Positions 4,383-20,000 are shown, numbered from the stretch's first letter. The stretch is DNA of 20,000 nt from an uncultured virus (IMG/VR IMGVR_UViG_3300033888_000043) (IMGVR_UViG_3300033888_000043); one strand, 5' to 3'. The notes: generated by a model not told the origin, from the sequence alone. A program made the numbers and translations.

Positions 4383-5521
4383 AAGCCCCCTTTCCTTGGT
4401 TCGGCGGTAAGAGCCGCGCGGCGGAACTTGTCTGGCGGCACTTCGGCGACGTCGGCAACTACGTTGAGCCGTTTGCTGGCAGCTTGGCTGTGCTGTTGGC
4501 TAGGCCTCACGCGCCGCGGATTGAAACAGTGAATGACGCCGATGCCTACTTGGCCAACTTCTGGCGGGCACTCCAGGCGGATCCAGAAGCCGTGGCTGAG
4601 TTTGCCGACTGGCCGGTGAGCGAGGTAGACCTGCAGGCGCGGCATCGCTGGCTTACCGAACAACCGGACTTCCGCGCCAAGATGGGGACGGATCCGGACT
4701 TCTACAACGCCAAGATCGCCGGCTGGTGGGTGTGGGGTATCTCGCAATGGATCGGCGCCGGCTGGTGCTCAAGGCCGGAATGGATTGGCCGCGCGCAAGG
4801 CGGCAAGGCGCATTCCCGCGGCGTGAACGGTAGCGCCAACCTCCGCCTGAATGGCAAGATGGGCGTGCATTCGGCGGCGAGTTGGGCCGGCAAGCTCGAT
4901 GGCATGAATAAGCGGCCGGTCATCAACCGCGGCGGCCGGGGAATATCGAAGTTGCCAAAGATGAACCGTGGAGACGTAAGTAGGCTGCAGCCGGGGCGCA
5001 AGATCCGGACCCCGGAAAATCCAGACTGGCAGCATCGGCCGCAACTCACTAATGAAATGGGCGTGCATGCCAAGAATCTGCCGGGCGTCGCACTGGTGTC
5101 CTGGATGTGCGCCTTAGCCGACCGCCTGCGCCGGGTGCGCGTCTGCTGCGGCGACTGGTCCGGGATAGTCAGGCCGAGCTGCACCTGGAAGCTCGGTGGC
5201 GGCCAACTGACCGGAGTATTCTTGGATCCGCCGTACTCGCATACGATGCGCGACAACCGGCTGTACTCGGTTGAGGAAGACGTTGCGGCCGAAGTCCGCG
5301 AGTGGGCGATTGCCAACGGCGACAACCGGAACCTGCGAATAGCGCTTTGCGGACTCGGTGGCGAACATATCATGCCAGAGGGTTGGCACATGACCAGATG
5401 GAAGGCAGCACGGGGCTACTCCAACAAGGGACCACGGGATGAGGTGATCTGGTTCTCGCGGTATTGCATCCACACCGGAAACCTGTTTCAGGACGCGGAA
5501 TTAGAAAGGGCAGCCCCATGA
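4379..5521 (+). CDS. DNA adenine methyltransferase (D12/Dam-like class) with large central insertion
   Basis: 'PFPWFGGKS', 'YVEPFAGSLAVL', 'ETVND', catalytic 'VFLDPPY'. ATGA-coupled start at 4379. Confidence 0.9.
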   Translation: MKAPFPWFGGKSRAAELVWRHFGDVGNYVEPFAGSLAVLLARPHAPRIETVNDADAYLANFWRALQADPEAVAEFADWPVSEVDLQARHRWLTEQPDFRAKMGTDPDFYNAKIAGWWVWGISQWIGAGWCSRPEWIGRAQGGKAHSRGVNGSANLRLNGKMGVHSAASWAGKLDGMNKRPVINRGGRGISKLPKMNRGDVSRLQPGRKIRTPENPDWQHRPQLTNEMGVHAKNLPGVALVSWMCALADRLRRVRVCCGDWSGIVRPSCTWKLGGGQLTGVFLDPPYSHTMRDNRLYSVEEDVAAEVREWAIANGDNRNLRIALCGLGGEHIMPEGWHMTRWKAARGYSNKGPRDEVIWFSRYCIHTGNLFQDAELERAAP

Positions 5522-5703
5522 CCTGCGAACAATGCCACGGCTGGGGAGTAGTCTTATTCCCCGGGGAGCCGCCGATCTGGTGCCGATGTGCAGCAGGACG
5601 CCGGCGCGAGCAGCAGGCGCTCAATGAGATCGCCTGCAAAATCCGGCGAACAATGTCGGTACTCGCGCTGATTACCGGACTGGCCGGGCGGCCGGCGCGG
5701 TGA
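5518..5703 (+). CDS. Small Zn-finger protein (CxxCxGxG...CxC)
   Basis: MTCEQCHGWG...WCRC. ATGA-coupled. Confidence 0.65.
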   Translation: MTCEQCHGWGVVLFPGEPPIWCRCAAGRRREQQALNEIACKIRRTMSVLALITGLAGRPAR

Positions 5704-5718
5704 TAAATTTATCACCGC
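5697..5718. promoter_or_regulatory. Perfect 22-bp palindrome, candidate operator
   Basis: GCGGTGATAAATTTATCACCGC, with an AT-rich core in GC-rich DNA, at a gene junction. Confidence 0.5.
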
Positions 5719-5767
5719 CGCTTTCGAGACAAGCATGGCCGGAAACTACCCATAAGAGGACACCTCA

Positions 5768-5947
5768 ATGCACGATAGGCCACGCAGGCCCCGGCAAGAC
5801 TTGCTATTGACGCACCAACCCATACCGCTCCGCGACTGGATACGGGAGAGGCTCCGGGGTTTCGAGTTGCGCCAGAAACAGAGGGATGAAGCGCGGCGCG
5901 CCAAGAACCTCGCCATCGCCGACCGGAAGGTTTGGAAGCTGACATGA
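5768..5947 (+). CDS. Small basic hypothetical protein (59 aa, MHDRPRRPRQDLLL...)
   Basis: GAGGA RBS at 5756-5760 and ATGA coupling to the next gene. Missed by the ORF track. Confidence 0.6.
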   Translation: MHDRPRRPRQDLLLTHQPIPLRDWIRERLRGFELRQKQRDEARRAKNLAIADRKVWKLT

Positions 5948-6117
5948 CTATAGCGTTTCTCGCCGACGAACCCAAGATCGAAAAAACGTGCCACCGCTGC
6001 CACGCGGCCTATCTCTCCTCCTGCCGGAACGTCAAGTACTGCCCATCCTGCCGGGAAGTGCGGAAGATCGAGCTGCGCGTGCCGTATGCGAAGCGCAAAA
6101 AGCGGCCTGGCTCCTGA
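5944..6117 (+). CDS. Small Zn-finger protein (CxxC...YCxxC)
   Basis: KTCHRCH...KYCPSCR. Coupled start at 5944. Confidence 0.65.
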   Translation: MTIAFLADEPKIEKTCHRCHAAYLSSCRNVKYCPSCREVRKIELRVPYAKRKKRPGS

Positions 6118-6123
6118 GCGTGG

Positions 6124-6132
6124 TGGTAATCT
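6124..6132 (+). promoter_or_regulatory. Extended -10 element, probable leaderless promoter
   Basis: TGG-TAATCT lies 6 nt upstream of ATG 6139, with no Shine-Dalgarno. Confidence 0.4.
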
Positions 6133-6138
6133 AAGACC

Positions 6139-6495
6139 ATGAAACGCGCGATACTGCTACTTTTTGCGTGCGCCGGCCTCGCGGCCGCGCAACACAGCGT
6201 TACCTTGACGTGGACGGCAGGCTCCGGCGGCGGCACCACCACCGGATTTATCGTGCAGCGCGGCACCTCGACGGGCGGCCCGTACACGCAGATCGGTGCC
6301 ATCTCCTCACCGGCCCAACTCAGCTACGTCGACACGGCCGGCGCGAGCAACGCGCTGACCGAAGGGTCGACGTACTACTACGTGGTCCTGGCAACCGGCC
6401 CTGGAGGTAATTCGTTGCCCTCGCCGCAAGCCAGTGCGACGATTCCCTTTCTGCCTCCGGCGCAACCCCCTACTTTGTCGGCTGTTCCCAAGTAG
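6139..6495 (+). CDS. Secreted fibronectin type III domain protein
   Basis: Signal peptide MKRAILLLFACAGLAAA. FN3 pattern 'SVTLTW...GFIVQRGT..GGPYTQI...SYVD...L.EGSTYYYVVLA...GNS.PS'. Confidence 0.85.
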   Translation: MKRAILLLFACAGLAAAQHSVTLTWTAGSGGGTTTGFIVQRGTSTGGPYTQIGAISSPAQLSYVDTAGASNALTEGSTYYYVVLATGPGGNSLPSPQASATIPFLPPAQPPTLSAVPK

Positions 6496-6507
6496 AGTAT
6501 TCTGTCG

Positions 6508-7074
6508 ATGCGCGCAATGACCCCAGTTGCCTTTCTGGTGGGCTTTTTGCTGGCCCAGGCGCCGGCGCCGGTCACGCAGTTGACCGCCACCGCGGATTGC
6601 CCGCCGATCGGGTCCACCATCGTTGCCTCGATCACCAGCACGACCAGGCTCAACGACACGCTGTCGTTTGCCTGCAACGCGCTGCCGCCGGCGATCCCAA
6701 GCTGCCCGCCGCCGATCTCGATCCCGGCGGGCTACAGCTACTACGGCGCCGGGGTGGTGGGCGTGAGGCTGTCGTACCTGGGCGTGCCGATTGTGGCTAT
6801 GCCCGGGTTGACGGGCGGCGCGCCGACCATAATTTGCCCGACGTGCTCCTGGAGCAACAACCTCAACTCCATGCCGGGCGATTATATGGTGGCCGTGGCG
6901 CAGCTCCAGCCGGGCAACACGCCGACGTTTGCCCAGGTGACACAGGAATGGTCCGGCTACCCGGCAAGCCCCCAGGTGAGCCTCCAGTGCGCGGGAAATA
7001 TCATTCCTTTGGCGCAGTGCCAGCAGATTGTGACCGCCAACGCCTACGGGGCAGTAACGGTCAGCGTGCCGTAG
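6508..7074 (+). CDS. Secreted Cys/Pro/Thr-rich hypothetical protein
   Basis: Hydrophobic N-terminal signal-like segment, several Cys residues, beta-rich composition. Confidence 0.65.
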   Translation: MRAMTPVAFLVGFLLAQAPAPVTQLTATADCPPIGSTIVASITSTTRLNDTLSFACNALPPAIPSCPPPISIPAGYSYYGAGVVGVRLSYLGVPIVAMPGLTGGAPTIICPTCSWSNNLNSMPGDYMVAVAQLQPGNTPTFAQVTQEWSGYPASPQVSLQCAGNIIPLAQCQQIVTANAYGAVTVSVP

Positions 7075-7075
7075 T

Positions 7076-7348
7076 ATGCCTGGGCCCGCTCCAAGCGGCT
7101 GCCGCATCCACGAAGCCGACTACCTCCTCACAGTGCGCCGCGACCGCACCGGACGTCTCAGGACGCGCTGCAAGCTCTGCGCCGCCGACGCGCAACAGGC
7201 ACGTCGCGACCAGCTCGCGGAAGCGCGGGGATGGTGGGGGCGAGGGCGCCGGCCACTAAAGCACCGCACCATTGAGCGTATGGCGTGGGTTCAGCCAGAC
7301 ATCTACGTCCGCATGGAAAGCAGCCTGCCGCGCGCTGAAAGCCGATAA
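7076..7348 (+). CDS. Hypothetical protein (C..H...CxxC)
   Basis: Starts 1 nt after the upstream stop and fills the gap. Confidence 0.5.
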   Translation: MPGPAPSGCRIHEADYLLTVRRDRTGRLRTRCKLCAADAQQARRDQLAEARGWWGRGRRPLKHRTIERMAWVQPDIYVRMESSLPRAESR

Positions 7349-7390
7349 CTCTTTTCCCGTGTTACTATTTCCACAGGGAGAATCACCACC

Positions 7391-7825
7391 ATGAAAGGAC
7401 TTGCTTTATCTATTCCGTCCTCGCGTCCGTCCTCGCGGACGGAAGTCTGGCGCCACCAGCGCCTCTACGATTACATCACCACGTTGGAGATGAGTTTCGC
7501 CGAACGGCAGCGGTTTAACGCCGCGCTCAACGACAATTTGACCGAGCGCCTGCTCTCGATCGAGAATCGGACCAGCGCGCCAATCACCGGCAACGCGCCG
7601 CCGGCGCCGGCAACCGATACCGCGCGGCACAGGCGGACCAAAGCGCAGCGCGCGAAGTTGAGCCAGGCCGCGACAGCCCGCTGGGCGAAACGGAGAGCCG
7701 AGGAAGCTGGTACGGCCGCGCCGCCCGCGGTTGAGACCGGAGGCCAGCCCGTGCCGGTGGCCGCTAAGACGCGCGCGCGCCGGAAGCCCGTCGAGAAGGC
7801 GATGAGCGCCGGCGGGGGGAACTAG
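7391..7825 (+). CDS. Basic putative nucleic-acid-binding protein
   Basis: GGGAG RBS and upstream TGTTACTAT extended -10 (7360-7368). Motif 'RRTKAQRAKLSQAATARWAKRR'. Confidence 0.7.
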   Translation: MKGLALSIPSSRPSSRTEVWRHQRLYDYITTLEMSFAERQRFNAALNDNLTERLLSIENRTSAPITGNAPPAPATDTARHRRTKAQRAKLSQAATARWAKRRAEEAGTAAPPAVETGGQPVPVAAKTRARRKPVEKAMSAGGGN

Positions 7826-7831
7826 GAGAGT

Positions 7832-7909
7832 AGCTGTCAGCTTTCAGCCGTCAGCTTTCAGCCCGCGCCCGCGGGTTTGGCTGATGGCTGAGGGCTGATG
7901 GCTGAAACT
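7832..7909. terminator. Heptamer-periodic inverted repeat hairpin between convergent operons (probable bidirectional terminator/processing element)
   Basis: Left arm AGCTGTCAGCTTTCAGCCGTCAGCTTTCAGC, right arm GCTGATGGCTGAGGGCTGATGGCTGAAACT (TCAGC/GCTGA every 7 nt). Confidence 0.6.
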
Positions 7910-7960
7910 TATTGGCAGAGCGTGCGCTCGCATCGCCTAAGCCCCCCGATGGCGCCCGGA

Positions 7961-8179
7961 TCAGTTCCGGTTCTTCGCCCTTGCATCGACGGGCGGACCA
8001 GGCACGGCCGTGATGTGCCAGCGGTCGTCATCGTTCTCGCCCAGCGCCCACAGCAACGTTTTGCAAGCTGCCGCTTTAGCGAACATCATTCCACCGCGCG
8101 TCATGCCATCTGGCTGCACGCGGCCATCGATGGCAAGCAACTCAGCCAACTTGCCTCTTATTTCCGATTCGGACTTCAC
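7961..8179 (-). CDS. Hypothetical protein (MKSESEIRGKLAELL...)
   Basis: GTGA-coupled to the upstream mini-ORF, purine-rich RBS. Confidence 0.65.
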   Translation of the reverse strand: MKSESEIRGKLAELLAIDGRVQPDGMTRGGMMFAKAAACKTLLWALGENDDDRWHITAVPGPPVDARAKNRN

Positions 8180-8256
8180 GCCGCCCCCTTCCGCTTAGCA
8201 ACAGGGCGCGTCGGGTTCCACGTCACATCGGTCCATTCGATTGAGGTTTTGCTCAC
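8176..8256 (-). pseudogene. Truncated phage Gp37/Gp68 (DUF5131)-family remnant, 26 aa
   Basis: Translates as MSKTSIEWTDVTWNPTRPVAKRKGAA*. 'T.IEWTD.TWNP' is the characteristic N-terminus of this family, but the Cys motif that normally follows is missing. GGGAGG RBS and GTGA coupling on both sides. Confidence 0.65.
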
Positions 8257-8492
8257 GATGTTTGCCTCCCGCGAAAAGCGTGCACTGGACGGCGGTTTTC
8301 CGCGCGCCGTTGCGCGTCGCTTGGCTCCGTCCGACGCGCTATACTGGCTTCATATGCCGCTCCAGCCGGCCGCCCCGAATCCCCTGAAATCAGCGTTTTA
8401 CCTCTCCAGTTCGGCATTACAACAGATCTCGTTTTCGTATCCGCGCCCGCAACCCTTTTAGTTGCTTCAGCCAACTTTTTTGAGTTCGGCAT
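8253..8492 (-). CDS. Hypothetical protein
   Basis: TAATG coupling upstream and GTGA coupling downstream. Confidence 0.5.
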   Translation of the reverse strand: MPNSKKLAEATKRVAGADTKTRSVVMPNWRGKTLISGDSGRPAGAAYEASIARRTEPSDAQRRAENRRPVHAFRGRQTS

Positions 8493-8749
8493 TATGCGCG
8501 TTTTGCCGAACTCGCCGGCCTGGTTTCCGGGCCTGCTTGCTCCCCGCTTTTCCCCTGCCTTTTGGCCGCCGCGAACTCCCGCAACGCGGCTGCAGTCAGC
8601 TCCGCCAAGCGGATGCGCTCGACCGTCGCCTGCACCGAGACGCCGGCTTCGGAGCGGTCGAGCGTGGCCAGCAGCTCTTGCGCACGACGGGCATGTGCAG
8701 CCGCCGCGCGATCGAGGTCGAGCAACTCGCTGGTGGTCCAGGCCGTCAT
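8492..8749 (-). CDS. Hypothetical helical protein (MTAWTTSELLDLDRA...)
   Basis: ATGA-coupled to the upstream gene. Confidence 0.6.
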   Translation of the reverse strand: MTAWTTSELLDLDRAAAAHARRAQELLATLDRSEAGVSVQATVERIRLAELTAAALREFAAAKRQGKSGEQAGPETRPASSAKRA

Positions 8750-8949
8750 TTTGCCCACCGTGCGAGTGCAGCCGCGCGCGCCAGGGCGCTCCGCTTCTCG
8801 GCAGGAATAGCCCGACGCCCCTCGACAGCCGCGGCGCTGGCCTTTATCGCAATCGCCCGGCGCCGGCGCGGCGACAGCTTCAATGCTCTCGCTCTGCCGC
8901 CCATCCCGGCGATGCGCGTCAGGTGCTCCCGCAGTGTGATTTCTCCCAT
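8746..8949 (-). CDS. Small very basic protein with GGxARA/KLSPxRRxxIAxKA/ARW motifs
   Basis: 'GMGGRARALKLSPRRRRAIAIKAS...KRSALARAAALARWAK'. ATG at 8949 sits 7 nt downstream of an extended -10. Confidence 0.7.
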   Translation of the reverse strand: MGEITLREHLTRIAGMGGRARALKLSPRRRRAIAIKASAAAVEGRRAIPAEKRSALARAAALARWAK

Positions 8950-8956
8950 CGGCCAC

Positions 8957-8965
8957 ATCTTACCA
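8957..8965 (-). promoter_or_regulatory. Leftward extended -10 promoter (leaderless)
   Basis: TGG-TAAGAT on the minus strand, followed by 7 nt and then ATG. Confidence 0.5.
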
Positions 8966-9007
8966 TGAAAAGGTGAGTACCATATCCAAAATCAGTACGG
9001 AAAGTAC

Positions 9008-9036
9008 TTGCGTTACGTTTCGCGCCGTGGCATGAT
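9008..9036 (+). promoter_or_regulatory. Rightward sigma70-type promoter of the early operon
   Basis: TTGCGT-17 nt-CATGAT with a TG extension. Confidence 0.6.
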
Positions 9037-9047
9037 AGGCATGGAAG

Positions 9048-9089
9048 TTAAAAAGCCGCGAGGCTAAAAAGAGCGAAAGGAACAAGATG
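9048..9089 (+). repeat. Leader module copy 1 (AGCC-GCGA-GGCT hairpin, A-rich linker, GCGAAAGGA RBS)
   Basis: TTAAAAAGCCGCGAGGCTAAAAAGAGCGAAAGGAACAAGATG. Near-duplicate at 9554-9594. Confidence 0.8.
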
Positions 9090-9239
9090 AGCGACCCCAA
9101 ATCCCCCCGCGGCGGAAAGCGGCCCGGCGCCGGCCGCCCGCGCGAATTGGACCCTGTAACCTGCCCCCGTTGCGGGGCGAGCGTGGCGGCCAGCCAGATA
9201 CAGAAGCACGTCAAGGCGTGCCAAGGAGAATCACAATGA
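9087..9239 (+). CDS. 50-aa protein: AT-hook-like GGKRPGAGRP plus C2HC Zn finger
   Basis: MSDPKSPRGGKRPGAGRPRELDPVTCPRCGASVAASQIQKHVKACQGESQ. AAGGA RBS and ATGA coupling. Missed by the ORF track. Confidence 0.7.
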   Translation: MSDPKSPRGGKRPGAGRPRELDPVTCPRCGASVAASQIQKHVKACQGESQ

Positions 9240-9487
9240 AAAGCAGAATCACATACATGACGCGCGAAGAAGCGATCGAATTGCTGGACGCATACGACGC
9301 TGCCCCGGACGCACCCGAATCCTGCGACAACCTCTGCACTGTGGCTGATGCGCTGCCTGGGCAGCCGGACGACCGCCAGTACACCTCGGACGATCTCCGC
9401 GAAATGGTGGATTCCGCTTGGTGTCCGCTGTGCGGCATGATCCACCCCAAGGGCGATGGACCTGCCGGATATTCTTGCGAGGCGTGA
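9236..9487 (+). CDS. Acidic hypothetical protein with C-terminal CxxC..H motif
   Basis: AGGAG RBS, coupled start MKSRITYM... Confidence 0.65.
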   Translation: MKSRITYMTREEAIELLDAYDAAPDAPESCDNLCTVADALPGQPDDRQYTSDDLREMVDSAWCPLCGMIHPKGDGPAGYSCEA

Positions 9488-9549
9488 ATCGCAGACGACA
9501 CGCCCTCCGGGGCGTGTAATGCGGCAGCGCCGGTTCGAAGCCCGGCCAC
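9484..9549 (+). ncRNA. Twister self-cleaving ribozyme, type-P5 (circularly permuted)
   Basis: P2 CGCA(9490-93)/UGCG(9520-23). GA-CGA (9494-98). P1 hairpin CACGCCC-UCCG-GGGCGUG. Conserved UAA (9517-19). P4 GCCGG/CCGGC with loop U-UCG-AA-GC. Pseudoknot T1 UCG/CGA and T2 GC/GC. Short P5 GUG/CAC. Confidence 0.88.
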
Positions 9550-9553
9550 CACA

Positions 9554-9594
9554 TTGAAAAGCCGCGAGGCTCTAAAGCGCGAAAGGAAAATATG
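9554..9594 (+). repeat. Leader module copy 2
   Basis: TTGAAAAGCCGCGAGGCTCTAAAGCGCGAAAGGAAAATATG, directly 3' of the ribozyme. Confidence 0.8.
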
Positions 9595-9918
9595 ATTACC
9601 TGGGACCCCCCGACCGAAGAAGAAACCTACCCGATCGAGTTCCACGACTGCGAACTGCATGAGGAGCAGGAGTACTCCTGCCCCGAGTGCGGCTCCGCCA
9701 ACGTGGAGTTGCGCGAATACGATTTTGGTGCCGGCGAACAAACCGGCTACCGCGATGCCGGAGACCAGTATTACTGCCTGGAATGCTTGTCGCACGGCGC
9801 CGCCGAAGACGCCGGATGGAAAGCTGCCCCGCGCGTCGTCGCCATCCGGGCGCAGGCTGAGGACGAAATGGAGCGCGCCTTGCGCTACGGGCATGGCGAT
9901 TATCAGGAGGTGGCGTAA
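9592..9918 (+). CDS. Acidic Zn-ribbon protein
   Basis: CPECGS...YYCLEC. AAGGA RBS. Confidence 0.75.
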   Translation: MITWDPPTEEETYPIEFHDCELHEEQEYSCPECGSANVELREYDFGAGEQTGYRDAGDQYYCLECLSHGAAEDAGWKAAPRVVAIRAQAEDEMERALRYGHGDYQEVA

Positions 9919-9921
9919 GCC

Positions 9922-10137
9922 ATGCGCGAGAACGATCTGCCCAAGATGATCTGGGATATGGCCACAGCGATGAACGCTGCTATGGCCGCCACTGTGCGCC
10001 GCCTGCCCGAGGAGCCGGCCGAGGAACCGATCCGGGCGCGGCCGAACGATCTGCCCAAGATGATCTGGGATATGGCCACCCAGATGAACGTTGCTATGGC
10101 CGCCACCTCGAGGGCGGCAGAAAAGGAGACAAAGTAG
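9922..10137 (+). CDS. Small protein with internal tandem duplication
   Basis: NDLPKMIWDMATxMNxAMAAT occurs twice. AGGAGG upstream. Confidence 0.65.
   Translation: MRENDLPKMIWDMATAMNAAMAATVRRLPEEPAEEPIRARPNDLPKMIWDMATQMNVAMAATSRAAEKETK
9930..10106 (+). repeat. 63-bp direct repeat (4 mismatches), period 114 bp
   Basis: 9930-9992 versus 10044-10106; the first 36 nt are identical. Confidence 0.9.
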
Positions 10138-10139
10138 CC

Positions 10140-11243
10140 ATGGCAACTCTCGCCGCATTGAATGGAAACGGAAACGGCCACGGGCCGCACCCCATCGTCA
10201 TCAAGCCGGACGGCTCGAATCTGGCGTCCGCGCTCAGCGCCTCTCTGGCCGTCCAGCAACTCAAGAAAGATGTGAACCTGGACGCGGCTATTGCGCGTCG
10301 GCACCTCATGATCGAAGTCACCAAGCGGCTGATGATCGAAGGCACCGACTACGGCCCCATTCCCGGATCGGACAAACCAACGCTCTTGCAGCCGGGTGCC
10401 GATAAGCTCTGCAATTTGTTCTCGCTCAAGCTGGAGTACGAAGTCACCGAGAACGTCAAAGATTGGACCGGCAAGGATCACGGCGGCGAACCGTTCTTCT
10501 ACGTCGAGGTCCGCAGCTTCGCCTATCGCGGCGAGGAGTTCATGGGCGAAGGTATTGGCTCCTGCTCCTCGTGGGAAGCCAAGTACCGCTGGCGCAAGGC
10601 AGAGCGGAAATGCCCCCAGTGCAGCAAGGAGAACATCCGCAAGTCGAAACAGGGGGGCTGGTACTGCTGGAACAAGACTGGCGGGTGCGGCGCTACCTTC
10701 CCGGCCGGCGACCAGACCATCGAGTCCCAGGAAGTCGGGCGCGTTCGCAACCCGGACGTGTTCGATGTCGTGAACACGGTCCAAAAGATCGCTCTCAAGC
10801 GCGCCAAGATCAGCGCCACGATCAACGCGACTTCGGCCTCGGAGTTTTTCACCCAGGATATCGAGGAGCAGCCCGAGCCCGAACCCGAGCCTGAAACGCA
10901 AAAAGCGCAGCAACCGGCCCAAACCCTGACAGGCAAGCCGGCTGCTACGCTTCCAGATGCACAATCCCAAACTTCTTCTTCTCCGCAGTCTACCACGAAG
11001 CCCTGGCGCACCTTCGGCGAAATGGTCCGCTGCTTCGAGGCCCTCAAGTCCCAGATCCCCTGGCCGCTTTATTACGAAGTGCTCCGGCAGTTCGGCGTTG
11101 AGCACTCCAACCAGTTCGACAACGCCAAGGCGTCGTGGGCATGCTACCAGCGCCTGGAGCAACGGGTGCAAGAACACTTGCACAAGGCGGCGGACCCGCG
11201 CACCTTCGAACACTACGAAGCTGTGGAAGGAGACTGGCAATGA
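10140..11243 (+). CDS. Putative single-strand annealing/recombination protein with inserted Zn finger
   Basis: 'DYG.IPG..KPTLLQPGADKL', 'GEGIGSCSSWEAKY', CPQC...CW...GGCG, 'NTVQKIA.KRA...A.....S.FFTQDIE', then a Pro/Gln linker. Adjacent to a Gp157-like gene. Confidence 0.6.
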   Translation: MATLAALNGNGNGHGPHPIVIKPDGSNLASALSASLAVQQLKKDVNLDAAIARRHLMIEVTKRLMIEGTDYGPIPGSDKPTLLQPGADKLCNLFSLKLEYEVTENVKDWTGKDHGGEPFFYVEVRSFAYRGEEFMGEGIGSCSSWEAKYRWRKAERKCPQCSKENIRKSKQGGWYCWNKTGGCGATFPAGDQTIESQEVGRVRNPDVFDVVNTVQKIALKRAKISATINATSASEFFTQDIEEQPEPEPEPETQKAQQPAQTLTGKPAATLPDAQSQTSSSPQSTTKPWRTFGEMVRCFEALKSQIPWPLYYEVLRQFGVEHSNQFDNAKASWACYQRLEQRVQEHLHKAADPRTFEHYEAVEGDWQ

Positions 11244-11878
11244 GCGCCCTAGCTCTGGTTGAACCTCGGGAGGCTACGGCCTCCCTTTCGCTGTACGAAT
11301 TGTCCGAGGAGCTTGTCTGTCTCTTGGACACCCGCGACATGGTGGAGCAAGGCTCCGCCGACCAAGCCGACCTCGACGCGCAGATCCAGCAGTTCCAGGA
11401 CGCGCTACCGCGCAAGGTAGATAATGTCTGCCGGATGCTGGCTCACCTCGAATCGCAGGCGGCCGCAGCGAAGCTTGCGGCGAATCTCGAATTCGAACGG
11501 CTTACCAAGCGCCAGAAGCATTTCGAGTCCCAGGCGGCATCCCTCGAAGGCTACTGCGTGCGCGTGCTGGAGGCCCTGCCGGCGCCAAAGAAGGGCCCGC
11601 GCAAGCTGGAGGGCCAGTGCAACACCCTGGCGCTCTCGACCTCGGAGCGATGCAAGGTCGAGGACGCGGCGCTGGTGCCGATCGAATACAAAACGGCCGC
11701 GGCGAAGATGCCGGCGGAATTGTGGCAGCAGATCGTCGAGACGCTGTGGCCCGAAACCCTGGCGCAGATCACCGTCGATGTGTCTGTCCGGCTGGCCGAT
11801 GTCAAAAAGGCTCTCAAGGCCGGCGTGGAAATCGAAGGCGCCGACATTGAGTATCCGAAAGGAGTCAGGCGATCATGA
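11240..11878 (+). CDS. Siphovirus Gp157-family protein
   Basis: 'SLYELSEEL', 'KVDN', coiled coil, 'VEDAALVPIEY', 'VKKALKAGVEIEGA'. Confidence 0.8.
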   Translation: MSALALVEPREATASLSLYELSEELVCLLDTRDMVEQGSADQADLDAQIQQFQDALPRKVDNVCRMLAHLESQAAAAKLAANLEFERLTKRQKHFESQAASLEGYCVRVLEALPAPKKGPRKLEGQCNTLALSTSERCKVEDAALVPIEYKTAAAKMPAELWQQIVETLWPETLAQITVDVSVRLADVKKALKAGVEIEGADIEYPKGVRRS

Positions 11879-12045
11879 AATCACTGACACGGCACTACTC
11901 CTGGTGGCAGCACGTCGCCTTGTTCTGCCTGAGACTCACGAGCGGCCAGGGCGATGCCATGACTGATGCGCTGGGGCTGGGCGTGCTCTGCGCGATCGGC
12001 ATTGCCTGTTTTATCGCGCTGCTGCGCATCTGGGGAGTGAAGTGA
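11875..12045 (+). CDS. Small membrane protein (56 aa)
   Basis: Coupled at both ends. C-terminal TM 'ALGLGVLCAIGIACFIALLRIW'. Confidence 0.5.
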   Translation: MKSLTRHYSWWQHVALFCLRLTSGQGDAMTDALGLGVLCAIGIACFIALLRIWGVK

Positions 12046-12461
12046 CCTGGTGGTATGTCTCCGCTGCCGGTATTGCCATCGGAGGCCTGCTGGGCTTCCG
12101 GTGGCTTTACAATCGCAACCTGCGCTGCCGGTGCGGCCGGTTCGCCGATGCCGTGCGGGGCGGCACGCCACTCTGCTGGCACTGCGCCAATTCGCTGGCG
12201 CGGCGCGCGGCCATCGCCGCCAGGTGTCCGTGCGGCAACCACGCGGATGCCATGGTCTCGCATCACCCGGTATGCCGGCGATGCGTGCAGGCGCTCGATA
12301 GCGTGGTGGCGTCGCTGCACTTCCGCGGACTCACCGACCGGGAAATTATCCGGTACCTAGTGGAGGCTGGGCGGGATGCAGAGGCAGAGATCCTGCTAAA
12401 GAAGCTGGAGAACACCGAGGCTGCATACGAAGCCAGCTTCGGAGATAGGGAGCCAAACTGA
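12042..12461 (+). CDS. N-terminal TM protein with two CxC...CxxC Zn-binding repeats
   Basis: WWYVSAAGIAIGGLLGF, CRCG...CWHC, CPCG...CRRC. Confidence 0.65.
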   Translation: MTWWYVSAAGIAIGGLLGFRWLYNRNLRCRCGRFADAVRGGTPLCWHCANSLARRAAIAARCPCGNHADAMVSHHPVCRRCVQALDSVVASLHFRGLTDREIIRYLVEAGRDAEAEILLKKLENTEAAYEASFGDREPN

Positions 12462-12655
12462 TGAGCCAAAAATCGAAGCAATACTTCCAATGGCAGGAAG
12501 CCCAGAAGCGCGATGCGGAACTCTGCCAGCGACCAGGCTGCAAGCACCCGCGTGGGTGGCACGTCGGCGACAAGAACTGCACGGCGCGGCAGATCAACCA
12601 GTGCGACTGTCCCGAGTTTGTTCCCGCGCCGCCTGAACCGGCGAGGGCGGCATGA
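12461..12655 (+). CDS. Small Cys/His-rich protein
   Basis: C..PGC.H....H...C.....CDC..F. TGATG coupling. Confidence 0.6.
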   Translation: MSQKSKQYFQWQEAQKRDAELCQRPGCKHPRGWHVGDKNCTARQINQCDCPEFVPAPPEPARAA

Positions 12656-16085: not shown

Positions 16086-19000
16086 TTAATGTCCGGCAGC
16101 TTCCCGGCGCAGCGCCTTCTCGCGTTTCTCCGGGCTGGAGGCATTCTGCACGATTCCCTGGGTAATAGGGTTCAAGTCGGCCGCCATCCGCCACCAGGCG
16201 TTACCCACTTTCCCCCGGTCGCTGCCCAGGAATCCGCTCTGCTGGCCCAAATCGCCATAGAAGGCATTCAACTCACGGATTGAGGCACCGATGGTGGCGC
16301 CGACCTCCGAAGAATAGCCAGCGTGCTTCTGCGCAGGAGCCGAAGAAAACGCCGGCATCAGGCCGCCCATAAATCCGGGCTTGCGTGTGTTGGGCGTTGC
16401 GGGCATCAACTTCGGGCCGGGTTCCACGTAAGGCTCGTAGCCCTGGCCCAGCAGCCCACTGCCCAGCACGAACATGCTGCGCGCGGCGGGGCCTTCCATG
16501 GGGTGCGCCAGGCTGTTCGAGATATCCGAGAATGCGCCTTGCGCCATCTGCGCGCCGGTACCGCCAGACTGCATGGTCTGGAACATTTGCGGCACGCCGA
16601 ATAACCTGGCGCCGCGGGCCGGCAGGGGATTGTACCAGTTAAAATTGAGGTAGCCCACTTCCGGACCATTCCCCCACATGGCATCGCCCAGCTTCGAATG
16701 CCGGAACTGATCGATATATCCATTGCCACCGCCAACCGGGATAGAGAAAGCCTTGGCGCGCCTGTCTTCCAGCGGCCATTTCCCGGTGAGCAATTTGTAG
16801 CCAATCACCCACAGCGCCACAGCCATAATGCTCGAGGCTGCCCACATCCAGGCGCGCGCTTCGGGCGTCATCTGACCGTATGGTCCTTTGCCACCCGCGG
16901 CCAGGGGTGCTCCGGTGTAGGAATCCACCGCGTTCACCATGCGCGTCATGCCGGCGGTAGCGAACGGTCCCAGGCCGATGCGCTTGACGAACTTCTCGAT
17001 CTCGCCCTGGAATTCCGGGGTGTAGTTCCCGAGCTGGTTGACGAAGTGGTACAGGTTGCTGGGGGTCTGCTCCTCGGCGGGGAATGACGCCTGAAAGATG
17101 TCGTACATCAGGATGCGCGCGCGGGCGTCCAGGCCTTTCGGGCCAAACAGTAACGGGCCGAAGCTGGCGCGCTCGACCTTGGCGCCGGTGGCCTCGGCAA
17201 ATTCTTTCGAGTATGTCACTTTGCCCGACCGCGCAGGCATCGCGCCGGCCTGCGCCATCTTTTGCAGTTTGGCGATGTTCTCGGGAGTTGTGGGATCGAT
17301 GGACAGCAGCTTGCCCCGGATGGCCGCCCACTTAATGAGGGGCAAAGAAAGCGCCTTGTCCAGTCCGGACTTGCCCAGGAAAGGCGTGTTGGAATAGAGC
17401 GCGCCCATGACGCCGGACGAGTGGAACAGGAATTCGTAGGGGCCTTTGGTGGCCAGCATGTTGGCCCAGGCCATCATTTTGGCGACGTCGTTCGGATCGC
17501 TTGGCTCTTTGGCGAGGATCGGCCGCAAGCCCCGCTCCATAAACTTCGGCATGACTCCGAAGCTGGCCGGGATATGGGTAACCTTGCCGTTCTGGATAAT
17601 CAGCCGCGCCTGTCCGGTTTCGACTTGCGCGCCTTCATAGACCTCGCCGTCCGGTCCTTTGATCGTGCCGTCCCAGTTGGCGGGCTGGGGTTTCAGCCAC
17701 GCGGTCTCACGCAAGGTCTTGATGAGCACGGCCTTGTCGTTGGCGCGGATCGCGCTGGCCAGGCGCCGGGCGAAGTCCTCCATGTGGATCGAGTAGCCGC
17801 CGGACGATAAACCTGTGGCGAAGGCGTTGGCGATGTTCTTGGGCGGGTGGTACGGCAGGCGCCGGCCTGGTCCCGCTACCGTCTGTTTGTCCACGGGGAT
17901 CAGCGGGTAGTAGGTATCGAGGGGTCCCAGCGCGTCGGAAAACACGCCTTCATTGAGAGCGTGATTCCGGGCCATCACCGCTTCCACCTGGTCTTTGTAA
18001 ATGCGGTGGGCCTCAGCGACTCCCGGCTGGGATTTGATGAGATCGCAGACGTAATCGAAGGCCGGTTCGGGCATCACCTGCTGCACGCGCGCCGCGGCGT
18101 CGCGGAACGTCTGTTCCAGGAATTCGCGCAACGTGTCCCAGTCGTGTGCCTCGGCCAGAGCCGCCGCAGTCTGCCCCAAGTCCTGCGCCAGGCCGGCGCG
18201 CCCTTCGATATTCGACAGCAGTTGCAGTGTCGGGTTGGGGTGGTCGCTCGAGTACTTTCCGTAGACGAAATCCTTCAGGTCCTCTTCCGTCATCTCGGCC
18301 GCCTGGTCCGCAAAGCCGTTCCAGCGATCGCGGATGCCTTCGAGACGGGACTGATCGTAAGCCATGGCGAGCGTGTCCCAGGTGATGGGCGAGCCTTTCA
18401 GCACTTTCATGATCGCTGGCATGGCAGAATGGAGGACCGTGGAGGCCTGCGACATGGATCCGCCGGTCCGGAGAGCGGCTTCAAACACGTCCTTGGAGGA
18501 CTTCTCCACTTCGGCCAGGGATTGGCCGGGCTGTACAATGCGCTTGAGGCCGCCCATAGCGCTGTAGTTGGCTTTGGGGGCGTCGTCTTTGCCGAATTTG
18601 CGCACCAGGGCGTCGGTCAGATCGGTGAGCATGGGAGCGGAGCCGCGCTCGCCGGGATGGGACGCGGACGCATGTGGCCCGAAAACTTCTGGCTTCAGAA
18701 CGCCTATTGCCTCGTAGTGTTTACCATCATCTCCGGTTTCGTATTGCCGGAGGACATCGAACTTGCTACGTGCCAATTCCTCGGCAAGGTTGGGGGTTTT
18801 GAAGAGTTCGCGGAGACGGGCGGCTTGTGCGCCCGCTACGCGGCTGGGGCGGAAAGCGGCAGCTTCACCCTGGTCCCCTGCATTTCGATCCCGTTGCCCG
18901 ACAGCTTCACCTGCTCCAGGCCGCTCGGGGGATACAGCCTGTCCAGGGCCGCTTCGAAGACTTTGGGGTCCGTTGCTTCCAGCAGTTCCTCGAGGTTCTG

Positions 19001-20000
19001 CTGCGGCGAAGACTCGCTCGGCGATTGCGCGGGAAGATTCGGTGCCATATTCTCTCCTTAATGCTCTCACGTATTGCGCGGCGAGGTAACGGGCTTCGGT
19101 ACCAGTGATACCAAGCTCCTTGTACCCGTCCGGACGCATCAGCCGGACGCCTACCTCGGCCGCCAGCATTCCCTGGGGCAGGTATCCGTAGCGCTTGGTG
19201 ATGGTGGCCGCCGCCACTCTTCCTGGTTCAGATCCCTGTGTCAGCCACGTGGCCGAGTCTCCCAGGTGGTAGCGGGTGAGGGTCTGGGTTGAGCCAGCCT
19301 GCAAGGCGTGGTCGAGTTCTTCCCGCATGGCAATGGCCTTGTGCCAGCCGGGGAAGGTTTCATGGTCTGCAACCAGGATGAGGCTTTTGTTTTCGGCTGC
19401 CGCCCTGGCGGCAAACTGGTGCAACTGGTCCAGGGCCTCAGGCACCGTGGTGTACGGCTGCTTCATCGTGGCGCACATGGAAGCCACCTTACGCGCGTTG
19501 TGTGGGTCCATGTGGAGCCCGCGCAAGTTCATGGCTGCATCGTCCATGCTGAAGCCGGCGAAGCTCGCCGCAAAGGCCATGGCGTCCTGATTTACCACGT
19601 AGGCCTTGGCGTAGGTTGAGTCGGCGGGGCTTAAGGCGATGCGTTCGAATACCGCATTCTGAATGTGGTACCCGAGACTGCGGCTGGGCATGTAGGGCTT
19701 GGTGCGCTCGTAGTTGCTGGATAGCCGGGGGGTGGTGACGGTGGTGGGGGCGATTGGCGCATGCGGAGCCGGGATGTTGAATAGCGCCTGGCCCTGCATG
19801 ACGGATTCCCGCATGGCAGGGGTAATGTCGATCGAGTGGACGGTTTCAAATCCAGCGGGTTGAGCCGATTTTGCGAACTCGTTTGCTGCTGCTTCAGTGT
19901 CGAATTCGGCGATGGGGTCAGCGTTCAGATCGCTGCTGTTGTAAACCTGCCAGATGGTTGGCCGGCCTTCAAAGGGCTGTGCGAAGACAGAGACTTTCCC
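16086..20000 (-). CDS. Very large phage protein (C-terminal >1300 aa), probably a large polyvalent/virion-ejected protein; 5' end outside the window
   Basis: The frame stays open from 20000 through the listed ATG at 19814. 'VHSIDITPAMRESVMQGQALF' linker motif, long helical Ala-rich body, hydrophobic segment near the C-terminus. Confidence 0.7.
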   Translation of the reverse strand, partial: GKVSVFAQPFEGRPTIWQVYNSSDLNADPIAEFDTEAAANEFAKSAQPAGFETVHSIDITPAMRESVMQGQALFNIPAPHAPIAPTTVTTPRLSSNYERTKPYMPSRSLGYHIQNAVFERIALSPADSTYAKAYVVNQDAMAFAASFAGFSMDDAAMNLRGLHMDPHNARKVASMCATMKQPYTTVPEALDQLHQFAARAAAENKSLILVADHETFPGWHKAIAMREELDHALQAGSTQTLTRYHLGDSATWLTQGSEPGRVAAATITKRYGYLPQGMLAAEVGVRLMRPDGYKELGITGTEARYLAAQYVRALRREYGTESSRAIAERVFAAAEPRGTAGSNGPQSLRSGPGQAVSPERPGAGEAVGQRDRNAGDQGEAAAFRPSRVAGAQAARLRELFKTPNLAEELARSKFDVLRQYETGDDGKHYEAIGVLKPEVFGPHASASHPGERGSAPMLTDLTDALVRKFGKDDAPKANYSAMGGLKRIVQPGQSLAEVEKSSKDVFEAALRTGGSMSQASTVLHSAMPAIMKVLKGSPITWDTLAMAYDQSRLEGIRDRWNGFADQAAEMTEEDLKDFVYGKYSSDHPNPTLQLLSNIEGRAGLAQDLGQTAAALAEAHDWDTLREFLEQTFRDAAARVQQVMPEPAFDYVCDLIKSQPGVAEAHRIYKDQVEAVMARNHALNEGVFSDALGPLDTYYPLIPVDKQTVAGPGRRLPYHPPKNIANAFATGLSSGGYSIHMEDFARRLASAIRANDKAVLIKTLRETAWLKPQPANWDGTIKGPDGEVYEGAQVETGQARLIIQNGKVTHIPASFGVMPKFMERGLRPILAKEPSDPNDVAKMMAWANMLATKGPYEFLFHSSGVMGALYSNTPFLGKSGLDKALSLPLIKWAAIRGKLLSIDPTTPENIAKLQKMAQAGAMPARSGKVTYSKEFAEATGAKVERASFGPLLFGPKGLDARARILMYDIFQASFPAEEQTPSNLYHFVNQLGNYTPEFQGEIEKFVKRIGLGPFATAGMTRMVNAVDSYTGAPLAAGGKGPYGQMTPEARAWMWAASSIMAVALWVIGYKLLTGKWPLEDRRAKAFSIPVGGGNGYIDQFRHSKLGDAMWGNGPEVGYLNFNWYNPLPARGARLFGVPQMFQTMQSGGTGAQMAQGAFSDISNSLAHPMEGPAARSMFVLGSGLLGQGYEPYVEPGPKLMPATPNTRKPGFMGGLMPAFSSAPAQKHAGYSSEVGATIGASIRELNAFYGDLGQQSGFLGSDRGKVGNAWWRMAADLNPITQGIVQNASSPEKREKALRREAAGH

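What the first reader, a model, noticed from the sequence alone, without database searches (positions are those of the whole stretch)
9484..9549. Permuted (type-P5) twister ribozyme inside the phage early operon
Seen: every twister core element can be folded by eye. P2 is CGCA/UGCG, P1 is a closed hairpin, UAA marks the cleavage site (predicted cut U9517/A9518), and P4 carries a GGU-NNN-AAGCCC loop. The loop triplet UCG is complementary to the CGA that follows GCAGA. Established: characterised twisters have CCC/GGG or UAC/GUA at these T1 positions, so UCG/CGA is a compensatory variant. Inference: it cleaves the polycistronic early mRNA between gene 2 and gene 3, separating the first two small genes from the recombination genes. 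The biological role of phage self-cleaving ribozymes is largely unknown.
Basis: partly seen in the sequence, partly recalled or inferred. Interest (0 to 1): 0.85.

Follow-up and report, generated by a model that had tools for sequence, protein, structure and literature searches.

The report
Twister ribozyme on an optional phage cassette
A textbook self-cutting "twister" RNA sits between two genes of a peat-soil phage, on a 506-base optional gene cassette that a nearly identical phage lacks; such ribozymes are common in phages, so the find is real but fairly ordinary.

Summary
Rfam's covariance model calls a full-length type-P5 twister at 9490-9545 (+): 56.0 bits against a gathering score of 37.6, E 1.9e-9. 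It is the only family over threshold in the window. P2, P1 and P4, the UAA cleavage site (U9517/A9518), both pseudoknots and every strongly conserved consensus position are present. The T1 triplets CGA/UCG are a compensatory variant. The element starts 2 nt after the stop of a small gene and ends 46 nt before the next start, in a temperate tailed-phage fragment from peat.

New here: the twister lies on a 506-nt accessory segment made of two small zinc-finger genes, the twister and a second copy of a 35-nt leader (hairpin plus Shine-Dalgarno). A 99.9%-identical metagenome contig lacks exactly this segment, and so does a complete 87.7-kb relative.

The family is not rare. A strict pattern finds at least 123 stretches in IMG/VR. 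In 61 of 74 testable cases the layout is the same stop-twister-short leader-start.

Most likely it self-cleaves the early polycistronic mRNA and gives the downstream genes a native-like leader. Cleavage itself is untested.

Verdict: new member of a known kind, moderate interest.

The parts
9048..9082 (+). Leader copy 1: small hairpin AGCC-GCGA-GGCU plus Shine-Dalgarno AAAGGAA, 4 nt before the ATG of gene 1. Presumed native 5' UTR of the early operon.
   Evidence: Direct repeat D2, 31 of 35 identical to 9554-9588, spacing 506. The same leader follows a promoter-like TTGACA...TTATTC in the relative L005.
9087..9239 (+). Gene 1: 50-aa basic protein with a C2HC-type zinc-finger pattern, function unknown.
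   Evidence: ORF with a Shine-Dalgarno in leader 1. Only sub-threshold Pfam zinc-finger hits, e.g. zf-C2HC_2 E 2.7e-4, 21 bits against a cut-off of 27.
9236..9487 (+). Gene 2: 83-aa protein with CxxxC...CxxC, function unknown. Its ATG overlaps the gene 1 stop (ATGA).
   Evidence: Three protein clusters in the 5.8-billion-protein search: its own, one at 77% and one at 71% identity. No Pfam family.
9490..9545 (+). Type-P5 twister ribozyme: P2 9490-9493/9520-9523; P1 9499-9505/9510-9516; P4 9530-9532/9543-9545; T1 9496-9498/9535-9537; T2 9524-9525/9540-9541.
   Evidence: RF02684, 56.0 bits, gathering 37.6, E 1.9e-9. MFE fold, z -3.1.
9517..9518 (+). Predicted scissile bond between U9517 and A9518.
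   Evidence: Alignment of UAA to the conserved UAA of the model. Cleavage between the less conserved U and the conserved A is stated in PMC5408937. Not tested.
9554..9588 (+). Leader copy 2: the same hairpin plus Shine-Dalgarno, 3 nt before the ATG of gene 3. It is closer to the leader of relative L005 than copy 1 is.
   Evidence: (94.7% against 86%).
9083..9588 (+). 506-nt accessory segment (equivalently 9073-9578, because the breakpoint lies in the shared 10-mer GCGAAAGGAA): gene 1, gene 2, twister and the leader copy.
   Evidence: L134:1-2456 equals window 6634-9090 (99.92%), and L134:2415-4999 equals window 9554-12138 (99.85%), so 506 nt are missing.
9592..9918 (+). Gene 3: 108-aa zinc-ribbon protein, the first gene after the twister. 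It follows leader 1 directly in the variant L134.
   Evidence: Weak sub-threshold Lar_restr_allev hit, E 0.0017, 19 bits against a cut-off of 28.6.

Best explanation
A genuine type-P5 twister self-cleaving ribozyme lies in the intercistronic gap of the rightward early operon of a temperate tailed phage from peat. The transcript that reads through gene 1 and gene 2 folds into the twister just after the gene 2 stop and cuts itself between U9517 and A9518.

The upstream product, the gene 1-gene 2 mRNA, ends in the GC-rich P1 hairpin with a 2',3'-cyclic phosphate. The downstream product starts with a 5'-OH, the P4 hairpin and, 36 nt further on, a second copy of the operon's own 35-nt leader (hairpin plus Shine-Dalgarno) in front of gene 3.

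The twister belongs to a 506-nt optional cassette inserted into, or deleted from, that leader. Cleavage therefore uncouples the cassette mRNA from the core early genes and gives those genes a 5' region like the one they have in the cassette-free phage.

Shown: family membership, position, the cassette polymorphism and the duplicated leader. Inferred: transcription as one RNA, cleavage in vivo, and any effect on stability or translation.
For: Identity:
-, plus T1/T2 read directly.

Same-strand genes on both sides, tight spacing:
-.

Phage context:
- HNH endonuclease, DNA methyltransferases, a Gam-like protein and several PHROG families.
- Terminase small and large subunits, integrase, antiterminator and transposase in the rest of the record.
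- IMG/VR virus record of 32,924 nt.

Cassette:
- The 35-nt repeat.
- L134 is 99.9% identical but 506 nt shorter, exactly between the repeats.
- The complete relative G001 (87,751 nt, terminal repeats) has the leader but no twister-P5.

Generality of the layout:
- At least 123 stretches match a strict twister-P5 pattern in viral contigs.
- 110 of 128 distinct matches have fully complementary T1 triplets.
- 61 of 74 with enough flank have a same-strand ORF ending at the twister (median -1 nt) and an SD-preceded ORF starting a median 28.5 nt after it. The antisense control gives 7 of 74.
- Arrays carry a contig-specific leader after each twister.

In print:
- Hammerheads flank single genes in prophages and cut about 2-kb polycistronic RNAs in vitro (PMC3088659, passages).
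- Processing of polycistronic transcripts has been suggested for bacterial twisters and hammerheads, with function otherwise elusive (PMC6765202, section 13).
Against: - No experiment or read-level RNA data shows cleavage.
- The element is dispensable. A near-identical variant and a complete relative lack it. Among 24 related loci scanned (7, 17), only one twister sequence was found. It is type-P1-like and below gathering, appears under two locus ids (L002 and L145), and sits at another position.
- In-silico accessibility of the Shine-Dalgarno and AUG of gene 3 is the same before and after cleavage (0.75 against 0.74), so no unmasking effect is predicted.
- No sigma-70-type promoter was found by the consensus scan in 7800-10200, so where the operon starts is inferred only from the leader and from the relative L005.
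- In a 186-nt context the pseudoknot-free MFE keeps P1 and P2 but pairs the P4 region elsewhere.
Confidence: 0.72

Rival explanations
1. Insulator reading, a sharper version of the best explanation. The twister plus the duplicated leader is a portable module that lets an accessory cassette be plugged into the 5' leader of an operon without changing expression of the genes behind it. This would be a natural counterpart of the synthetic RiboJ part. The repeated leaders also serve as the recombination sites that insert, delete or duplicate the cassette.
For: - In L134, gene 3 sits directly behind leader 1. In the window it sits behind the twister plus leader 2.
- The breakpoints fall in the shared 10-mer.
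- A contig from an RNA library joins 9578 to 9073 with 10 ambiguous letters. That is the reciprocal junction of the L134 deletion, meaning a circle, a tandem duplication or a donor arrangement.
- Other phages repeat 'twister + own leader' before each gene.
- Homology between different phages breaks at the 5' edge of twisters in 3 locus pairs.
- RiboJ is a self-cleaving-ribozyme insulator that raises and standardises downstream expression (PMC6206723, abstract).
- Repeated regulatory cassettes that mediate indels and mini-circles are known in T4-type phages (PMC2839356, abstract).
Against: - There is one polymorphism in one phage.
- The back-join comes from one low-depth contig (3.2) of an RNA library, and reverse-transcriptase template switching at a 10-nt repeat could produce it.
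- A second, different back-join (9529 to 9131) in another run argues for artefacts or heterogeneity.
- No expression data exist.
- The 3 breakpoint pairs share loci, so they represent perhaps 2 independent events.
- In L036 against L012, a small-gene indel beside a twister carries no twister of its own.
Confidence: 0.3
2. The twister serves the cassette genes rather than the downstream operon. Cleavage gives the gene 1-gene 2 mRNA a defined 3' end, a 7-bp GC-rich P1 hairpin with a cyclic phosphate. This sets its lifetime independently of the long early transcript.
For: - In the P5 permutation the whole P1 hairpin stays on the 5' product (read; fold).
- The twister starts 2 nt after the gene 2 stop, and the median is -1 nt in 71 other cases.
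- The twister travels with genes 1 and 2 in the indel.
Against: - No data on RNA stability.
- In 3 locus pairs of other phages the twister travels with its downstream gene, not the upstream one.
- This reading is not exclusive of the best explanation.
Confidence: 0.15
3. Passenger. The ribozyme is active or decaying but has no benefit for this phage. It came along with the cassette from a donor phage in which twisters punctuate every gene.
For: - Absent from the nearest variant and from the complete relative.
- Leader copy 2 matches the leader of the other phage lineage better than copy 1 does.
- The RNA-library contig shows twister-leader 2-gene 1 adjacency, as a donor array would.
Against: - All conserved positions and both pseudoknots are intact, with compensatory T1 changes. 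That points to recent selection for activity.
- The cassette-bearing form is held by 16 of 24 listed runs at half or more of the sampled words.
Confidence: 0.12
4. Circular RNA. Two twisters in a tandemly duplicated cassette release a 506-nt RNA that is ligated into a circle encoding genes 1 and 2.
For: Back-join 9578 to 9073 in an RNA-library contig.
Against: - The record holds a single twister.
- The junction is at the leader repeat, not at the cleavage site.
- Contigs cannot show circles.
- Perreault et al. looked for circular or spliced products of hammerhead arrays and found none (PMC3088659).
Confidence: 0.03

Closest known systems
Twister ribozyme, type P5 (Rfam RF02684, clan CL00120)
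   Same: Full-length match over the gathering score. P1, P2, P4, T1, T2, the UAA site and all strongly conserved positions are present. P1 is closed by a loop and there is no P3.
   Different: The T1 triplets CGA/UCG were not seen among 128 other viral matches. The host phage is high-GC (62%) and from peat. Activity is untested.
Clustered hammerhead ribozymes that flank genes in prophages (Perreault et al. 2011, PMC3088659)
   Same: A small self-cleaving ribozyme in phage intergenic gaps on the coding strand. The proposed role is cutting long phage transcripts into gene-length mRNAs.
   Different: A different ribozyme class. Here there is a single copy, and it lies on a demonstrably optional cassette with a duplicated leader.
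RiboJ, the synthetic ribozyme insulator (PMC6206723)
   Same: The same order of parts: self-cleaving ribozyme, then a small hairpin, then a ribosome-binding site, so that the downstream gene gets a fixed 5' end whatever lies upstream (abstract; the make-up of RiboJ is recalled).
   Different: RiboJ is engineered, as I recall from a satellite-RNA hammerhead, and it sits behind a promoter. This element is natural, a twister, and sits between cistrons. The insulating effect here is only inferred.
PeSL regulatory cassettes of T4-type phages (Arbiol et al. 2010, PMC2839356)
   Same: Short repeated regulatory sequences between small non-essential genes. Recombination between them gives insertions, deletions and mini-circles (abstract). 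Compare the leader repeats, the L134 deletion and the 9578-to-9073 join.
   Different: PeSLs are a promoter plus a terminator stem-loop. Here the repeat is a 5' leader (hairpin plus Shine-Dalgarno) combined with a ribozyme. Only one event has been seen.

Membership tests
Twister ribozyme, type P5 (RF02684) | Covariance-model score at or above the curated gathering score, full length | tested here: met
   56.0 bits against 37.6, E 1.9e-9, model positions 1-58 of 58 (7.2e-13 in the record-only search).
Twister ribozyme, type P5 (RF02684) | Essential stems P1, P2 and P4 (PMC5408937) | tested here: met
   P2 4 bp, P1 7 bp, P4 3 bp with no non-standard pair flagged. All three appear in the MFE of the isolated RNA.
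Twister ribozyme, type P5 (RF02684) | Pseudoknot T1: three Watson-Crick pairs between L1 and L4 | tested here: met
   C9496-G9537, G9497-C9536 and A9498-U9535, read. The same positions are complementary in 110 of 128 other matches.
Twister ribozyme, type P5 (RF02684) | Pseudoknot T2: conserved GC of L2 with GC of L4 | tested here: met
   G9524-C9525 with G9540-C9541, read.
Twister ribozyme, type P5 (RF02684) | About ten strongly conserved nucleotides in L1 and L4, and a U-A cleavage step next to P1 | tested here: met
   All upper-case consensus positions outside T1 are identical. UAA is at 9517-9519.
Twister ribozyme, type P5 (RF02684) | P5 permutation: P1 closed by a loop, chain ends beyond P2 and P4 | tested here: met
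   The best clan member is the P5 model, and the order is P2-5', P1 hairpin, P2-3', P4.
Twister ribozyme, type P5 (RF02684) | Site-specific self-cleavage giving 2',3'-cyclic phosphate and 5'-OH ends | not testable with these tools
   Only assembled contigs of RNA libraries were available. None of the listed pieces bridges or ends at 9517/9518 in an informative way.
Ribozyme insulator of the RiboJ kind (functional analogy, not a sequence family) | Cleavage makes downstream expression independent of the upstream sequence | not testable with these tools
   Only the order of parts (ribozyme, hairpin, SD) and the cassette-plus/cassette-minus pair are shown. The folding proxy shows no change in SD accessibility.
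PeSL-like mobile regulatory cassette | Repeated regulatory motif whose copies recombine to give indels and circles | tested here: inconclusive
   There is one deletion/insertion exactly between the two leader copies and one reciprocal join in an RNA-library contig. The leader pattern is found in only one other viral contig.

The most novel reading that the evidence does not exclude
Twister-plus-leader modules are natural 'plug-in sockets' of phage operons. The ribozyme cuts off whatever was inserted upstream and restores a standard leader for the next gene. The repeated modules themselves are the homology at which small gene cassettes are inserted, lost, duplicated or released as circles. The window would then hold a caught-in-the-act example: cassette-plus (this record), cassette-minus (L134) and the reciprocal junction (an RNA-library contig).
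Probability: 0.25. Interest if true: 0.65.

Novelty: new member of a known kind. Interest (0 to 1): 0.38.

Why it matters
The biological role of bacterial and phage self-cleaving ribozymes is still described as largely elusive (PMC6765202, section 13). This locus adds no new ribozyme class. It does offer a natural, nearly isogenic pair: the same phage with and without a 506-nt twister-bearing cassette in front of the same gene and the same leader. That makes the 'processing/insulation' idea directly testable with a few constructs. The survey done on the way suggests the layout is a common rule of phage operon design rather than a curiosity. In that survey, at least 123 stretches in viral contigs match a strict twister-P5 pattern. 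In 61 of the 74 testable matches the layout is stop codon, twister, short leader, start codon.

Tried and rejected
- **Chance match.** Rejected: E 1.9e-9, and T1, which the model does not score, is also complementary.
- **Other ribozymes nearby.** The permissive Rfam scan of the window and of the rest of the record found none.
- **Conservation of the twister at this position in relatives.** Not found. It is absent in L134 and in G001. Of 24 related loci, only the type-P1-like twister of L002/L145 turned up, below gathering at 45.8 bits against 67.2, and it lies downstream of the 367-aa gene.
- **GenBank phages.** No blastn match for 8500-12500.
- **Relatives of gene 3 and gene 2 in viral contigs.** None.
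- **RNA evidence.** Four metatranscriptome-labelled runs were laid, all as assembled contigs. They cover parts of 7500-12500. No listed piece has 31 or more letters on both sides of 9517/9518 and none ends there, so nothing can be said about cleavage or even about transcription, since DNA can be present in such libraries. Parts without cover are no evidence.
- **Unmasking of the Shine-Dalgarno by cleavage.** Not supported by folding: 0.75 against 0.74 unpaired.
- **Sigma-70 promoter or terminator near the element.** No promoter-like site, and one terminator-like site on the minus strand at 10188-10174, fewer than in shuffles.
- **tRNA or tmRNA in the window.** None.
- **Function of the 367-aa protein.** PDB sequence hits are low-complexity or repeat matches. 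Atlas hits are all below 0.9. It is left as unknown.
- **Earlier notes of this scan on this genome.** None exist.
- **Exact 32-mer of the hairpin at 7832-7863.** Not found in other viral contigs.

Full report
**1. The observation**

The window is 62% G+C. It is bases 702-20701 (minus strand) of an IMG/VR virus record of 32,924 nt, classed as linear and 38% complete.

Rfam cmscan over both strands of the window finds one family above its gathering score. It is Twister-P5 (RF02684) at 9490-9545 on the + strand, 56.0 bits against 37.6, E 1.9e-9, covering model positions 1-58 without truncation. A permissive scan (E up to 1) adds only a meaningless miRNA-model match to a hairpin at 7834-7918.

Read against the sequence:
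- P2 is 9490-9493/9520-9523.
- P1 is 9499-9505/9510-9516, closed by UCCG.
- UAA is 9517-9519.
- P4 is 9530-9532/9543-9545, with the loop GUUCGAAGCC.

The covariance model does not score pseudoknots, so T1 is an independent check. C9496-G9497-A9498 pairs perfectly with U9535-C9536-G9537, where the consensus has GgG/CcC. T2 (G9524-C9525 with G9540-C9541) is also present. Every other strongly conserved consensus position is identical.

The 61-nt RNA alone folds into P2/P1/P4 at -31.9 kcal/mol, z -3.1.

These features are the ones the review PMC5408937 lists: three essential stems, two pseudoknots, about ten conserved nucleotides in L1 and L4, and cleavage between a less conserved U and a conserved A (passages). 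Its catalytic G9494 fits by position, which is my count on the Rfam type-P1 consensus against the env22 numbering in that review.

**2. Surroundings**

The record is a temperate tailed-phage fragment.
- In the window: an HNH endonuclease, two DNA methyltransferases, a Gam-like/Sipho_Gp157 protein (11135-11878) and several PHROG families of unknown function.
- In the rest of the record: small and large terminase, integrase, antiterminator and a transposase.
- No other ribozyme lies anywhere in the record.

On the + strand:
- A 50-aa ORF (9087-9239) and an 83-aa ORF (9236-9487, with ATGA overlap) precede the twister by 2 nt.
- A 108-aa zinc-ribbon ORF starts 46 nt after it, at 9592.
- Gene 2 has two distinct homologue clusters, at 77% and 71% identity, so it is a real gene.
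- None of the three small proteins has a family above threshold. They give only weak zinc-finger hits, and gene 3 a weak Lar hit.

The sequence is held by peat and permafrost metagenome runs. Twenty of 24 listed rows hold part of 8900-10200, 16 of them hold half or more of the sampled words, and two may be the source sample.

The best bacterial relatives of the 367-aa protein are in Pyrinomonadaceae/Blastocatellia MAGs at 45-49% identity. That is only a hint at an acidobacterial host.

**3. The twister sits on an optional cassette**

A 35-nt direct repeat (31 of 35 identical, spacing 506) lies at 9048-9082 and 9554-9588. Each copy is a small hairpin (AGCC-GCGA-GGCU) plus AAAGGAA, ending 3-4 nt before the ATG of gene 1 and of gene 3 respectively. 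It is therefore a translation leader.

Metagenome contig L134 is the same phage. L134:1-2456 equals window 6634-9090 at 99.92%, and L134:2415-4999 equals window 9554-12138 at 99.85%. It has a single leader followed directly by gene 3. The 506 nt carrying gene 1, gene 2, the twister and one leader copy are missing, and the breakpoint lies within the shared 10-mer GCGAAAGGAA.

A more distant relative (L005/L157, about 82-85% nucleotide identity in the downstream genes) is a complete 87,751-nt genome with terminal repeats. It carries the same leader behind a promoter-like TTGACA...TTATTC, in front of a different first gene, and it has no twister-P5. Its leader is closer to copy 2 than to copy 1 (94.7% against 86%).

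So leader copy 1 is most likely the operon's native 5' UTR, and the twister is an accessory that is not conserved as part of the operon. Among 24 further loci that encode relatives of the 367-aa protein, only one twister sequence appears (in L002 and L145). It is of the P1 permutation, below that family's gathering score (45.8 against 67.2 bits, E 5e-7), and at another position. Its T1 is again compensatory, GUC/GAC.

**4. RNA-library contigs**

Four metatranscriptome-labelled runs were laid on 7500-12500. All are kept as assembled contigs. They give no information on cleavage, as set out under Tried and rejected.

Two contigs carry 'goes back' joints.
- One run joins 9578 to 9073 with 10 ambiguous letters. 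This is exactly the reciprocal of the L134 deletion. It is what a 506-nt circle, a tandem duplication or a donor arrangement 'twister-leader 2-gene 1' would give.
- Another run joins 9529 to 9131, where both sides share GCGCCGG (read).

Both contigs are low-depth (3.2 and 6.9). Reverse-transcriptase template switching at microhomology is a plain alternative. I treat the first joint as a lead and the second as unexplained.

**5. How common is this?**

A strict pattern (GCAGA ... UAAUGC ... GGUNNNAAGCC) finds at least 123 stretches in IMG/VR.

Of 128 distinct matches:
- 110 have fully complementary T1 triplets, in more than 20 pair combinations (GUG/CAC 62, GGG/CCC 15, GGA/UCC 8, and others).
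- 6 have two of the three T1 positions pairing, 7 have one and 5 have none.
- CGA/UCG does not occur.

Of the 74 matches with complementary T1 and at least 400 nt on both sides:
- 71 have a same-strand open frame of 50 or more codons ending at the twister (median -1 nt).
- 64 have an SD-preceded ORF starting after it (median 28.5 nt).
- 61 have both, against 41, 11 and 7 in the antisense control.

Matches with non-complementary T1 or short flanks were left out of that count.

Several high-GC contigs hold arrays of 3-6 twisters about 400-600 nt apart, one per small gene. Each twister is followed by a leader that is repeated within the contig and differs between contigs. The window's element follows this common design.

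Homology between different contigs stops within a few bases of the 5' edge of the twister in three locus pairs: L022/L045, L012/L075 and L074/L075. These represent perhaps two independent events. L036 has a 245-nt small-gene insertion just after twister plus leader relative to L012.

**6. Mechanism**

Shown: a complete twister core, its place between two same-strand genes, the optional cassette and the duplicated leader.

Inferred from the family's established chemistry (PMC5408937):
- The transcript cuts itself between U9517 and A9518.
- The gene 1-gene 2 RNA is left ending in the P1 hairpin with a cyclic phosphate.
- A downstream RNA begins with a 5'-OH, P4 and the leader copy in front of gene 3.

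The likely consequence is that the fate of the cassette RNA is uncoupled from the core early genes, and that gene 3 keeps a 5' region like that of the cassette-free phage.

A simple folding proxy predicts no change in Shine-Dalgarno accessibility on cleavage. Any benefit would therefore come from RNA ends and stability, or from freedom from upstream structure and ribosomes, rather than from unmasking.

That ribozymes may process polycistronic phage transcripts is already in print, for hammerheads (PMC3088659) and as a suggestion for twisters (PMC6765202).

The resemblance to the synthetic insulator RiboJ (PMC6206723, abstract) and to the PeSL cassettes of T4-type phages (PMC2839356, abstract) is functional analogy, not membership.

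**7. Verdict**

This is a real, canonical type-P5 twister and a new member of a known family, in the context typical for such ribozymes. Its functional inference is reasonable but untested, and its interest score is too high.

The added value is the cassette-plus/cassette-minus pair and the duplicated leader, which make the processing/insulation idea easy to test.

My literature checks were limited to searches and to the passages named. I did not see the original twister papers (Roth et al. 2014, Weinberg et al. 2015). What I say of them is recalled, and their supplements may already list arrays of this kind.

Noticed in passing
window 7834-7918: A long imperfect hairpin (arms 7842-7863 and 7886-7907, 86% complementary) built from repeated CAGC/UUUCAGCC words, right after the stop of ORF 7391-7825. 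In the RNA-library runs, its left arm (7832-7863) matches pieces of many otherwise unrelated contigs, one of depth 444, with loose ends on both sides. The exact 32-mer is in no other viral contig.
   Followed up: partly
window 9475-9529 joined to 9131-9239: A contig of one RNA-library run (depth 6.9) joins 9529 back to 9131. Both sides share GCGCCGG. It could be a template-switch artefact or a rearranged variant. Unexplained.
   Followed up: no
window 9930-9992 and 10044-10106: A 63-nt direct repeat (94% identical, spacing 114) inside the 71-aa ORF 9922-10137, which makes it an internally repeated small protein.
   Followed up: no
L025:1501-4221, L064, L031, L063, L034, L013: High-GC viral contigs with arrays of 2-6 type-P5 twisters, one between each pair of small same-strand genes. 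Each twister is followed by a leader repeated within the contig. In L063, L034 and L013 that leader contains GCAGAGGAG, which resembles the twister's own 5' strand.
   Followed up: partly
L022/L045, L012/L075, L074/L075; L036:1581-1825 against L012: Nucleotide homology between different phage contigs ends within a few bases of the 5' edge of the twister. L036 carries an extra small gene of about 245 nt just after twister plus leader. Twisters may mark mosaic junctions.
   Followed up: partly
L002:3788-3845 (same sequence as L145:4610-4667 and L231:1484-1541): A type-P1-like twister scoring 45.8 bits, below the RF03160 gathering score of 67.2 (E 5e-7), with short P1 and P3 and compensatory T1 GUC/GAC. 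It lies downstream of the homologue of the 367-aa protein. It is probably a real twister that Rfam's threshold misses.
   Followed up: partly
L132:1437-2543 (rest of the record): A transposase (phrog_506, E 1.5e-90) lies inside the phage record, near an integrase (5691-6818) and an antiterminator-like ORF (4962-5672). It may be an insertion sequence in the phage.
   Followed up: no
window 16086-19814 (-): A 1242-aa ORF with no Pfam or PHROG family at the thresholds used.
   Followed up: no
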